A stretch of 64,000 nt of DNA from assembly GCF_050320075.1 (NCBI RefSeq), contig NZ_CP190018.1; one strand, written 5' to 3'. This DNA is from Escherichia coli (GTDB lineage Bacteria > Pseudomonadota > Gammaproteobacteria > Enterobacterales > Enterobacteriaceae). The position numbers and the translations under genes are program-made. The first letter of the stretch is position 1. Each line of letters begins with the position of its first letter. The notes beneath the pieces are model-generated. The model was not told the origin of the DNA, ran no database searches, and was given only the letters and a program-made list of their open reading frames with translations. This document shows positions 1,370 through 49,028 of this stretch, one piece after another.

Positions 1370-1517
1370 GAAAGGGTGCCCGCTGGTCAACACGAATGCG
1401 TTCGGCGGGCATTGTGAACACCATCAATGGGCTTCTTCTGTCTCTCGGGTGAGGGTTTCCCAGTCGGCAGGAGGATGTCCTCTTTTTAACATTTTGCTGA
1501 ATACGGTATAGGCATCT

Positions 1518-1525
1518 GTTTTTTT
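1518..1525. repeat. IS1 target-site duplication, left copy (GTTTTTTT)
   Basis: 8-bp direct repeat immediately outside the IS1 terminal inverted repeat; identical to 2294-2301. Confidence 0.85.
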
Positions 1526-1540
1526 GGTAATGACTCCAAC

Positions 1541-2044
1541 TTATTGATAGTGTTTTATGTTCAGATAATGCCCGATGACTTTGTCATGCAGCTCCACCGA
1601 TTTTGAGAACGACAGCGACTTCCGTCCCAGCCGTGCCAGGTGCTGCCTCAGATTCAGGTTATGCCGCTCAATTCGCTGCGTATATCGCTTGCTGATTACG
1701 TGCAGCTTTCCCTTCAGGCGGGATTCATACAGCGGCCAGCCATCCGTCATCCATATCACCACGTCAAAGGGTGACAGCAGGCTCATAAGACGCCCCAGCG
1801 TCGCCATAGTGCGTTCACCGAATACGTGCGCAACAACCGTCTTCCGGAGCCTGTCATACGCGTAAAACAGCCAGCGCTGGCGCGATTTAGCCCCGACGTA
1901 TCCCCACTGTTCGTCCATTTCCGCGCAGACGATGACGTCACTGCCCGGCTGTATGCGCGAGGTTACCGACTGCGGCCTGAGTTTTTTAAATGGCGGAAAA
2001 TCGTGTTGAGGCCAACGCCCATAATGCGGGCAGTTGCCCGGCAT
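1541..2044 (-). CDS. insB: IS1 InsB reading frame (expressed as InsAB' transposase by -1 frameshift)
   Basis: 167-aa [53 protein letters not shown]... recognised as IS1 InsB. Confidence 0.95.
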
Positions 2045-2238
2045 CCAACGCCATTCATGGCCATATCAATGATTTTCTGGTGCGTACCGGGTTGAGAAGC
2101 GGTGTAAGTGAACTGCAGTTGCCATGTTTTACGGCAGTGAGAGCAGAGATAGCGCTGATGTCCGGCGGTGCTTTTGCCGTTACGCACCACCCCGTCAGTA
2201 GCTGAACAGGAGGGACAGCTGATAGAAACAGAAGCCAC
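1963..2238 (-). CDS. insA: IS1 InsA transcriptional repressor / transposase N-terminal part
   Basis: 91-aa [45 protein letters not shown]... recognised as IS1 InsA. Confidence 0.95.
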
Positions 2239-2293
2239 TGGAGCACCTCAAAAACACCATCATACACTAAATCAGTAAGTTGGCAGCATCACC

Positions 2294-2301
2294 GTTTTTT
2301 T
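2294..2301. repeat. IS1 target-site duplication, right copy (GTTTTTTT)
   Basis: Identical 8-mer to 1518-1525, directly abutting the other IS1 end. Confidence 0.85.
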
Positions 2302-2663
2302 ACCGTAGGTGCGCAGCGTGTTTTCATCGTTCATCCATCCCAGAATGATGACTTTCTCTTTTTCGCTGTAACGAAAGAAGAGACGATAACGACCAGCACC
2401 AAATTTTACCCGTGACCAGTCTTTATTTTTCCCAGAGCCTAACGACTTGCCATGACGGAATGCCGGTGATGATGGATTGACCGTGATATGCTCCTCAATC
2501 ACTTTATGGACTACCGCCAATAACTTTGTGGCGGCTTTTCTCTGATAATTTTCAGGATCTTTTCCCTTTAATGTCTCGACTTCGGCAACTAAAGCGTCGT
2601 AGGTTTCCTGAAAACAGGGATGAGCATATAGCGCCCAACCATTAACCCTTTGTGGAAAATCCA

Positions 2664-2999
2664 TTATTCGTCGTCGCCAATCTCATCATCAATGTTGACG
2701 TCCATGCCAGCGACAAGTTTCTTTCCTTGTTGAGTGTCGAATGGACGAGTTTTTTGCGGGTTGTTCTGGATATCTGCATCCAGAAAACGCAAAAATGCAT
2801 TCATAGTATGATCCTCCTGTTCATCTCCCAGTCGGCACATAAATACTTGCCCACCAGGCAGAATTTCGTAATGAATGCTGTCCTGGCCTGGCTTCAGTTT
2901 TAAGGCCTCACGCACTGGCGCGGGGATAGTTGTTTGTCCGCGTATCGTGACCTTTGATTCAGTGGTCAGTACAGCGTGAGAGCGAGCATTAGCGGGCAT
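2664..2999 (-). CDS. prlF: Antitoxin PrlF (SohA) of the PrlF-YhaV toxin-antitoxin pair
   Basis: 111-aa ORF MPANARSHAVLTTESKVTIRGQTTIPAPVREALKLKPGQD... with acidic C-terminus; stop overlaps yhaV start by 1 nt (TAATG). Confidence 0.9.
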   Translation of the reverse strand: MPANARSHAVLTTESKVTIRGQTTIPAPVREALKLKPGQDSIHYEILPGGQVFMCRLGDEQEDHTMNAFLRFLDADIQNNPQKTRPFDTQQGKKLVAGMDVNIDDEIGDDE

Positions 3000-43881: not shown

Positions 43882-45018
43882 ATGAGCCACTTAGACAACG
43901 GTTTCCGTTCACTGACACTACAACGTTTTCCGGCGACGGATGACGTTAACCCGCTACAGGCGTGGGAAGCGGCGGATGAATATTTGCTGCAACAGTTGGA
44001 CGACACAGAAATCCGCGGCCCGGTGTTGATCCTGAATGATGCCTTTGGTGCGTTAAGTTGTGCGCTGGCGGAACATAAGCCATACAGCATTGGCGACTCA
44101 TACATCAGCGAACTGGCGACGCGCGAGAATTTACGCCTCAACGGGATTGATGAATCGAGCGTGAAGTTTCTCGACAGCACCGCTGACTACCCGCAACAGC
44201 CGGGAGTGGTGCTGATCAAAGTACCGAAAACACTGGCATTGCTGGAACAGCAACTGCGTGCGCTGCGCAAAGTGGTCACGCCAGATACGCGTATTATTGC
44301 CGGTGCCAAAGCCCGTGACATCCACACTTCCACGCTGGAACTGTTCGAAAAAGTGCTCGGCCCGACCACCACCACGCTGGCATGGAAGAAGGCACGCTTA
44401 ATTAACTGTACTTTCAACGAGCCGCCGCTGGCCGATGCGCCGCAGACCGTTAGCTGGAAACTGGAAGGTACTGACTGGACTATCCACAACCATGCGAATG
44501 TCTTCTCCCGCACCGGGCTGGATATTGGCGCGCGCTTCTTTATGCAGCATCTGCCAGAGAATCTCGAAGGTGAGATTGTCGATCTCGGTTGTGGTAATGG
44601 CGTTATTGGTCTGACGCTGCTTGATAAAAACCCGCAGGCGAAAGTGGTGTTTGTCGATGAATCGCCGATGGCGGTTGCTTCCAGCCGTTTGAACGTTGAA
44701 ACCAACATGCCCGAGGCATTGGATCGCTGCGAATTTATGATCAACAACGCGCTCTCCGGCGTTGAGCCTTTCCGCTTTAATGCTGTGCTCTGCAACCCGC
44801 CGTTTCATCAGCAACATGCGCTGACCGATAACGTCGCCTGGGAGATGTTCCACCACGCCCGCCGCTGTCTGAAAATCAACGGCGAGCTGTATATCGTTGC
44901 CAACCGTCACCTGGATTACTTCCATAAACTGAAGAAGATTTTCGGCAACTGCACCACCATCGCCACGAATAATAAATTTGTGGTGCTGAAAGCAGTGAAG
45001 CTGGGGCGTCGTCGGTAA
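43882..45018 (+). CDS. rlmG: 23S rRNA m2G1835 methyltransferase
   Basis: 378-aa ORF with SAM-binding motif VDLGCGNG and NPPFH. Confidence 0.9.
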
Positions 45019-45033
45019 GATTGGCAGCTACCT

Positions 45034-45121
45034 GCCAGATAAGGCGTAAACGCCTTATCTGGCATACGTTCAGCACATTACCCCCAGGTCGGATAAGACG
45101 CGGCAAGCGTCGCATCCGGCA
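45034..45121. repeat. REP pair (BIME) filling the rlmG-fadH convergent spacer
   Basis: GCCAGATAAGGCGTAAACGCCTTATCTGGC (perfect palindrome) and GGTCGGATAAGACGCGGCAAGCGTCGCATCCGGCA. Confidence 0.8.
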
Positions 45122-45135
45122 CTTCAATGCACGAT

Positions 45136-47181
<2,046 letters not shown>

Positions 47182-47458: not shown

Positions 47459-49028
<1,570 letters not shown>

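What the first reader, a model, noticed from the sequence alone, without database searches (positions are those of the whole stretch)
45019..45135. No higBA toxin-antitoxin pair between rlmG and fadH; only a REP pair
From established K-12 gene order as I recall it (ygjK, fadH/ygjL, higA/ygjM, higB/ygjN, rlmG/ygjO), higBA should sit between fadH and rlmG. Here the two genes converge with a 117-bp spacer made entirely of two REP palindromes. Together with the IS1-split yhaV, both toxin genes expected in this stretch are absent or inactive. REP/BIME sites are known hot spots for gain and loss of small modules.
Basis: partly seen in the sequence, partly recalled or inferred. Interest (0 to 1): 0.4.

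Follow-up and report, generated by a model that had tools for sequence, protein, structure and literature searches.

The report
Empty higBA site with REP pair
This E. coli strain lacks the HigB/HigA toxin-antitoxin pair that K-12 carries between rlmG and fadH and has only a pair of REP palindromes there, a common and already documented allele found in about one in five complete E. coli genomes.

Summary
rlmG (43882-45018, +) and fadH (45136-47154, -) converge on a 117-bp spacer made of two inverted REP hairpins (a BIME). There is no higB, higA or cassette remnant in the window. K-12 does carry higB-higA at this exact site.

The allele is ordinary. Among 5,426 complete E. coli genomes there are three states:
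- about 2,825 have intact higBA;
- about 1,550 have a 324-bp deletion that removes the promoter and 5' part of higB and leaves an orphan higA;
- 1,049 have no higBA DNA at all, and 1,014 carry the same empty junction as the window.

In occupied genomes the 15 bases 45107-45121 (gcgtYgcatccggca, the 3' arm of REP2) lie on both sides of the cassette. In E. whittamii almost the whole BIME is duplicated on both sides. The window's junction is exactly what recombination across these repeats would produce.

I favour secondary deletion over an ancestral empty site, but direction is inferred, not proven. Across other Enterobacteriaceae genera the empty state is the norm, and the gap repeatedly holds REP arrays or other small two-gene cassettes.

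The variable higBA content at this locus is published. Interest is low.

The parts
43882..45018 (+). rlmG, 23S rRNA (guanine1835-N2)-methyltransferase, intact, 378 aa
   Evidence: ORF list. NCBIfam NF011577 at 888.8 bits, full length. Annotated rlmG in the identical record.
45019..45135 (.). 117-bp convergent spacer, the empty higBA site. It consists of one BIME (two inverted REPs) plus short flanks.
   Evidence: Sequence. Fold z = -6.3. The same junction occurs in 1,014 of 5,426 complete E. coli genomes.
45034..45063 (.). REP1: perfect 14-bp stem with a 2-nt loop (gccagataaggcgt aa acgccttatctggc), followed by the 'catac' tail
   Evidence: The ccagataagg/ccttatctgg variant is shared with occupied alleles of O157 and GmF046.
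45088..45120 (.). REP2: imperfect palindrome gtcggataagacgcggcaagcgtcgcatccggc, in opposite orientation to REP1
   Evidence: Sub-threshold naRNA4 (REP-derived) match.
45107..45121 (.). 15-nt segment gcgtcgcatccggca, present on both sides of the higBA cassette in occupied genomes. It is the recombination junction of the empty allele.
   Evidence: Left homology of occupied genomes ends at query position 422, which is 45121. Right homology starts at query position 47, which is 45107. Direct sequence comparison.
45136..47154 (-). fadH, NADPH-dependent 2,4-dienoyl-CoA reductase, intact, 672 aa
   Evidence: ORF list. Annotated fadH in the identical record. 98-99% aa identity to K-12 and O157 FadH.

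Best explanation
The spacer is the unoccupied allele of the E. coli higBA locus. The 3' ends of rlmG and fadH are separated by a single BIME, that is, two inverted REP hairpins.

In occupied alleles the 938-bp cassette (promoter/operator, higB, higA, plus a collapsed BIME remnant) sits immediately after REP2. The 15-nt 3' arm of REP2 is repeated at the far end of the cassette.

The window's allele most likely arose by recombination or replication slippage between these direct repeats, or earlier between two full BIME copies like those still present in E. whittamii. That event removed the cassette cleanly and restored a single BIME. The strain therefore makes neither the ribosome-dependent mRNA interferase HigB nor the HTH repressor/antitoxin HigA.

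The remaining REP pair presumably acts as ordinary REPs do, forming 3'-end stem-loops that protect the two convergent mRNAs. It is not a canonical intrinsic terminator.

Shown: the anatomy, the repeat structure, the allele frequencies and the absence of higBA. Inferred: the direction of the event (loss rather than never gained) and the function of the REPs.
For: Junction anatomy:
- In every sampled occupied genome, left homology to the window stops at 45121 (rows H20-H39) and right homology starts at 45107 (rows H49-H79). The 15-nt overlap is the flanking direct repeat.
- The O157 allele (L004) has the same REP1 variant and the same right flank 'acttcaatgcacgat' as the window. Apart from three base substitutions in the BIME, the window equals that allele minus the cassette.
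- E. whittamii has 42-nt (100%) and 34-nt (91%) direct repeats, that is, almost the whole BIME, on both sides of higBA.

Evidence for decay and loss:
- An intermediate decay allele exists: a 324-bp deletion of the promoter and 5' part of higB. It has the same breakpoint in all 13 sampled rows and occurs in about 1,550 genomes.
- Empty junctions occur on two different REP1 haplotypes, each shared with occupied alleles.
- Flanks within about 300 bp are nearly identical between alleles A, B and C.
- higBA sits at the same site in E. whittamii, Pseudocitrobacter faecalis, Citrobacter sp. 18056 and Enterobacteriaceae bacterium RIT691. Its divergence ranks like that of the flanking genes.

Literature:
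- K-12 and HS have the complete pair at fadH-rlmG, while CFT073 and NRG857c have an orphan higA (PMC7232551).
- Chromosomal TA loci keep conserved positions and decay by deletion (PMC7167474).
- There is precedent for precise loss of a BIME-flanked gene, tnpA_REP, in phylogroup B2 (PMC3333891).
Against: - The junction sequence is symmetric. Integration of a BIME-carrying circle into a single resident BIME would give exactly the same pair of alleles, so direction cannot be read from the junction.
- The empty state is by far the commonest in other Enterobacteriaceae genera (about 70 of 80 species).
- The empty state is also present in two non-coli-like Escherichia representatives (L007 and L009, with 94-95% rlmG identity to E. 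coli). An old empty allele could therefore have persisted.
- Sharing of flank haplotypes between allele classes could reflect recombination rather than repeated deletion.
- No experiment here addresses what the REP pair does.
Confidence: 0.72

Rival explanations
1. Ancestral empty site. This lineage never had higBA. The single BIME is the original rlmG-fadH spacer, and the cassette entered other E. coli lineages later, for example by Campbell-type recombination of a BIME-bearing circle with the resident BIME, which would duplicate the BIME.
For: - rlmG and fadH are adjacent with 0-150 bp between them and no higBA in about 70 of 80 Enterobacteriaceae species.
- Empty junctions of the same form occur in the divergent Escherichia representatives L007 and L009.
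- The E. whittamii cassette is flanked by a duplicated BIME, as an integration would produce.
Against: - The window's flanks, both within about 100 bp to the left and 15 bp to the right, match those of occupied O157-type and orphan-higA alleles. An import by flanking homology would have brought donor flanks with it.
- Empty alleles sit on at least two haplotypes.
- About 81% of E. coli genomes and E. whittamii carry the cassette or its remnant, always at this one site.
- The cassette has no mobility gene.
Confidence: 0.23
2. higBA is not lost but relocated to another chromosomal site or a plasmid in this strain.
For: Only the 64-kb window was available, so the rest of this strain's genome was not searched directly. 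One of 4,382 higBA places in the collection is on a plasmid.
Against: - higBA is single-copy in 4,372 of the 4,377 genomes that have it.
- 1,049 genomes have no higBA DNA and 1,014 have the empty junction, so the two sets nearly coincide.
- All 60 listed genomes with the window's identical 513-aa neighbour gene show one place only, that is, no higBA.
Confidence: 0.02
3. Assembly artefact: the cassette was collapsed out between the REP repeats during assembly.
For: Repeats flank the cassette, and repeats can in principle mislead assemblers.
Against: The identical junction is present in 1,014 independently finished genomes, including UTI89. The repeat is only 15 nt, far shorter than sequencing reads.
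Confidence: 0.01

Closest known systems
E. coli K-12 higBA (ygjN-ygjM) locus between rlmG and fadH
   Same: Same chromosomal site, same flanking genes and same REP1-linker-REP2 BIME downstream of rlmG.
   Different: The 938 bp holding the promoter/operator, higB (104 aa, PF09907), higA (138 aa, HTH_3) and the short hybrid hairpin are missing here. The spacer is 117 bp instead of 1,055 bp.
Empty allele of UTI89 and about 1,000 other complete E. coli genomes
   Same: Same 117-bp spacer. UTI89 differs from the window at one base of the spacer.
   Different: Nothing of substance. The window is one more member of this allele class.
Orphan-higA allele (CFT073 and NRG857c in PMC7232551; GmF046 here)
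   Same: Same site, same left BIME haplotype as the window, and also toxin-less.
   Different: It retains an intact higA and 78 nt of higB, because a 324-bp internal deletion, rather than whole-cassette loss, removed the toxin.
REP/BIME elements of E. coli (Gilson, Bachellier, Hofnung; Ton-Hoang et al. 2012, PMC3333891)
   Same: Extragenic GC-rich imperfect palindromes, paired in inverted orientation with a short linker, multi-copy, and a known source of intergenic polymorphism and of precise loss of the genes they flank.
   Different: No tnpA_REP is nearby. Whether that enzyme or plain homologous recombination or slippage acted here is unknown.

Membership tests
REP / BIME | GC-rich imperfect palindrome of about 30-40 nt that forms a stable stem-loop | tested here: met
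   Two hairpins. MFE -51.1 kcal/mol against -30.0 for shuffles, z = -6.3, with 0 of 200 shuffles as stable.
REP / BIME | Member of a dispersed multi-copy sequence family located outside genes | tested here: met
   The arm motif CGCCTTATCYGGC occurs 5 times in the window against 0.21 expected, including other sites such as 24297, 49250 and 63732; I did not check each site against the annotation. The second arm motif occurs 5 times against 0.84 expected. BLAST of the spacer hits several places per genome. Sub-threshold match to the REP-derived Rfam family naRNA4.
REP / BIME | BIME: two REPs in inverted orientation separated by a short linker | tested here: met
   REP1 carries its 'CATAC/CTAC' tail at the 3' side. 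REP2 carries the corresponding 'CCAG/GTAG' head at the 5' side. A 24-nt linker lies between them.
HigBA type II toxin-antitoxin (K-12 YgjN/YgjM) | A HigB_toxin (PF09907) gene followed by an HTH antitoxin gene | tested here: not met
   No significant tblastn hit to K-12 HigB or HigA in the 64-kb window (best E 0.06) and no cassette DNA. The K-12 proteins themselves match PF09907 and PF01381.
Intrinsic (rho-independent) terminator | GC-rich hairpin followed by a T-run | tested here: not met
   0 terminator-like sites in 44700-45500 on either strand. The REP hairpins lack a T tract.
Transposon or IS-type mobile cassette (for higBA in occupied alleles) | Terminal inverted repeats, a short fixed-length target duplication and a transposase gene | tested here: not met
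   The cassette encodes only higB and higA. The flanking repeat is a REP arm or a whole BIME of variable length, 15 nt to about 90 nt.

The most novel reading that the evidence does not exclude
The BIME between rlmG and fadH could be a recurrent docking and exchange site where small toxin-type cassettes are swapped in and out by REP/BIME-mediated recombination, possibly catalysed by the REP-associated Y1 transposase. The cassettes seen here are higBA, a DUF1266 gene paired with higA in Escherichia sp. MOD1-EC7003 (its start also present in E. albertii), and DUF3289 + DUF943 in an Enterobacter. On this reading the empty allele in the window is the reusable 'attB-like' state, not merely a scar.
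Probability: 0.12. Interest if true: 0.5.

Novelty: already known. Interest (0 to 1): 0.12.

Why it matters
It matters little beyond strain description. The strain lacks HigB, and its YhaV toxin gene is disrupted by IS1, so two of the K-12 mRNA-interferase toxins are missing.

This adds to the published picture that chromosomal type II TA loci in E. coli are dispensable, vary between strains and decay.

The useful by-products are a quantitative census of the three alleles in 5,426 complete genomes and the precise repeat-bounded junction. The junction gives a simple PCR or in-silico marker: a spacer of 117, 731 or 1,055 bp. It also gives a testable deletion mechanism.

Tried and rejected
- **Relocation inside the window.** tblastn at E up to 10 and blastn with 7-nt words found nothing.
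- **Direct test of the nearest complete genome.** The tools cannot search one genome for higBA. I used a chimeric query instead (513-aa neighbour gene plus higBA) and read the places-per-record column. 60 of 60 records had a single place, but CFSAN061763 itself was not among the listed ties.
- **Small RNA or terminator in the spacer.** Only sub-threshold REP-derived naRNA4 hits and no terminator or promoter consensus.
- **Reading direction from the base after the repeat.** I first thought the 'a' versus 'g' after the repeat and the 'tgca' versus 'ataa' right flank separated empty from occupied alleles. The O157 occupied allele has the 'empty-type' flank, so this marker does not discriminate.
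- **Sliding mismatch profiles of rlmG and fadH.** The whole region is unusually diverse, with 94-98% identity among E. coli alleles, and the profiles give no clean recombination boundary.
- **E. albertii as outgroup.** The contig ends in an IS10 about 300 nt past rlmG, so it is uninformative.
- **Fiedoruk et al. 2015** (phylogroup distribution of TA loci) is not held in the library.
- **Phylogroup or ST of the window strain** was not determined, because the marker genes lie outside the window.

Full report
**1. The observation**

The window is E. coli. Over 61.7 kb it differs by 7 substitutions from strain CFSAN061763 (NZ_CP042899.1), apart from one IS1 insertion.

- rlmG is the ORF at 43882-45018 (+). 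It matches the RlmG equivalog NF011577 full length at 889 bits.
- fadH is the ORF at 45136-47154 (-).
- Between the two stop codons lie exactly 117 bp, 45019-45135.

The spacer contains two hairpins. REP1 (45034-45063) has a perfect 14-bp stem. REP2 (about 45088-45120) is an imperfect palindrome in the opposite orientation. A 24-nt linker separates them, so together they form a BIME.

- The spacer folds at -51.1 kcal/mol against -30.0 +/- 3.3 for dinucleotide shuffles, z = -6.3.
- The REP arm motif occurs 5 times in the window against 0.21 expected.
- The only Rfam signal is a sub-threshold match to the REP-derived family naRNA4.
- There is no terminator-like or promoter-like consensus.
- No HigB or HigA homologue and no fragment of the K-12 cassette exists anywhere in the 64 kb.

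**2. The K-12 comparison**

The K-12-type record CV601 has rlmG, 283 bp, higB (315 nt), higA (417 nt, overlapping higB by 4 nt), 44 bp, fadH. These spacings are the ones tabulated for MG1655 in PMC5120126.

**3. How common the allele is**

Three searches of 5,426 complete E. coli genomes define three alleles.

| Allele | State | Spacer | Genomes |
|---|---|---|---|
| A | intact higBA | 1,055 bp | 2,825 cover at least 80% of the higBA query |
| B | 324-bp deletion removing the operator/promoter and the first 237 nt of higB; intact orphan higA | 731 bp | about 1,550 |
| C | empty, as in the window | 117 bp | 1,014 contain the 140-bp junction query in one piece |

The allele B estimate is 4,377 genomes with any higBA match minus the 2,825 of allele A. 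Its breakpoint is the same in all 13 sampled rows. In total 1,049 genomes have no higBA DNA at all.

higBA is single-copy and chromosomal: 4,382 places in 4,377 genomes, with one place on a plasmid.

A chimeric query joined the window's 513-aa neighbour gene to higBA. All 60 listed genomes that carry this neighbour gene at 100% identity had a single matching place, which means no higBA anywhere in them. Relocation in the window strain is therefore very unlikely. Its own complete genome could not be searched.

UTI89 carries allele C with one base difference in the spacer. That TA repertoires differ among MG1655, W, EDL933 and UTI89, and that chromosomal TA loci decay by deletion at conserved positions, is reviewed in PMC7167474.

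**4. Anatomy of the indel**

In every sampled occupied genome, homology to the window coming from the rlmG side ends at 45121 (query position 422). Homology coming from the fadH side begins at 45107 (query position 47). The overlapping 15 nt, gcgtYgcatccggca, are the 3' arm of REP2. They are present on both sides of the cassette.

- In K-12 and O157 the right-hand copy belongs to a short hybrid hairpin, gccggatgcgtYgcatccggc.
- In E. whittamii the right-hand copy is still an almost complete BIME, giving direct repeats of 42 nt (100%) and 34 nt (91%) about 1 kb apart. The E. coli hairpin therefore looks like a collapsed second BIME.
- The O157 occupied allele has the same REP1 variant (ccagataagg...ccttatctgg) and the same right flank (acttcaatgcacgat) as the window. 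The window is that allele minus the cassette, plus three substitutions in the BIME.

**5. Direction of the event**

The junction is symmetric, so sequence alone cannot distinguish excision from integration.

For loss:
- 81% of E. coli genomes and E. whittamii carry the cassette or a remnant, always at this site.
- A decay intermediate, allele B, exists.
- Empty junctions lie on two REP1 haplotypes, each shared with occupied alleles.
- The flanks within about 300 bp are nearly identical among alleles A, B and C.
- HigBA homologues occupy the same gap in Pseudocitrobacter faecalis (69% and 83% aa identity for HigB and HigA), Citrobacter sp. 18056 (64% and 72%) and Enterobacteriaceae bacterium RIT691 (69% and 72%). 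This ranking parallels that of RlmG and FadH.

For an ancestral empty site:
- About 70 of 80 Enterobacteriaceae species have rlmG and fadH 0-150 bp apart with no cassette.
- Two divergent Escherichia representatives, L007 and L009 (94-95% rlmG identity), are empty.

I put about 0.72 on secondary deletion across the repeats and about 0.23 on an inherited never-occupied allele.

**6. Function**

This allele encodes neither HigB, a translation-dependent mRNA interferase (PMC2814082), nor HigA, the autorepressor.

The REP pair itself probably does what REPs are reported to do: stabilise mRNA 3' ends, attenuate transcription and bind gyrase or IHF (introduction of PMC3333891). This was not tested here.

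**7. Context**

The rlmG/fadH gap is variable across the family.
- Several Citrobacter and Enterobacter genomes hold 4-5 tandem BIME-like units there.
- Escherichia sp. MOD1-EC7003 has a DUF1266 gene in place of higB, directly upstream of an intact higA. E. albertii shares the left end of that arrangement.
- Enterobacter sp. kpr-6 has a low-GC DUF3289 + DUF943 pair.

PMC3333891 describes an analogous case: precise loss of BIME-flanked tnpA_REP in phylogroup B2, or its replacement by hicAB in B1.

**8. Verdict**

The feature is a frequent allele of a locus whose higBA content is already documented as variable. Novelty: already known. Interest: 0.12.

Noticed in passing
window 1424-2664 (IS1 at 1526-2293): A 768-bp IS1 with an 8-bp target duplication (gttttttt at 1518-1525 and 2294-2301) interrupts yhaV near codon 124 of 154; prlF is annotated intact at the corresponding position (2664-2999) in CFSAN061763 but was not checked in the window. 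The nearest complete genome, CFSAN061763, has yhaV intact, so the insertion is recent and strain-specific.
   Followed up: partly
window 47459-49000 (-): A 513-aa ORF lies between fadH and ygjK and is annotated 'hypothetical protein'. It has no Pfam, NCBIfam or PADLOC match. By eye it contains three internal repeats of about 150 aa (motifs INLIN.DTD...[12 protein letters not shown]...[11 protein letters not shown]). By arithmetic it is present in about 266 of 5,426 complete E. coli genomes, about 202 of which lack higBA.
   Followed up: partly
L006 5270-6568 (Escherichia sp. MOD1-EC7003); L005 1633-1930 (E. albertii): A DUF1266 gene (AT-rich, 265-286 aa) replaces higB and the left BIME, directly upstream of an intact higA (96% identical to K-12 HigA). 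This may be a swap of toxin partner. E. albertii has the same left end, then an IS10 at the contig edge.
   Followed up: partly
L057 5297-6681 (Enterobacter sp. kpr-6): A low-GC (0.35) two-gene cassette, DUF3289 (286 aa) plus DUF943 (175 aa), occupies the same rlmG-fadH gap.
   Followed up: partly
L003 1820-2550 (GmF046) and about 1,550 other E. coli genomes: Allele B is an identical 324-bp deletion that removes the higBA operator/promoter and the first 237 nt of higB. It leaves a full-length higA with no mapped promoter. It is widespread and occurs in distant lineages (O103:H2 here; CFT073 and NRG857c according to PMC7232551). This suggests spread by recombination or retention of an orphan antitoxin.
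   Followed up: partly
L028 5135-5597, L029 5135-5512, L059 5135-5586: In Citrobacter youngae and two other genomes the rlmG-fadH gap holds 4-5 tandem copies of a BIME-like unit of about 90 bp.
   Followed up: no
window 43882-47154: rlmG and fadH are unusually diverse among E. coli strains, with 94-98% nucleotide identity between the sampled alleles. The window's fadH allele is at most 95.7% identical, over the 3' 1,400 nt compared, to any other sampled allele.
   Followed up: no
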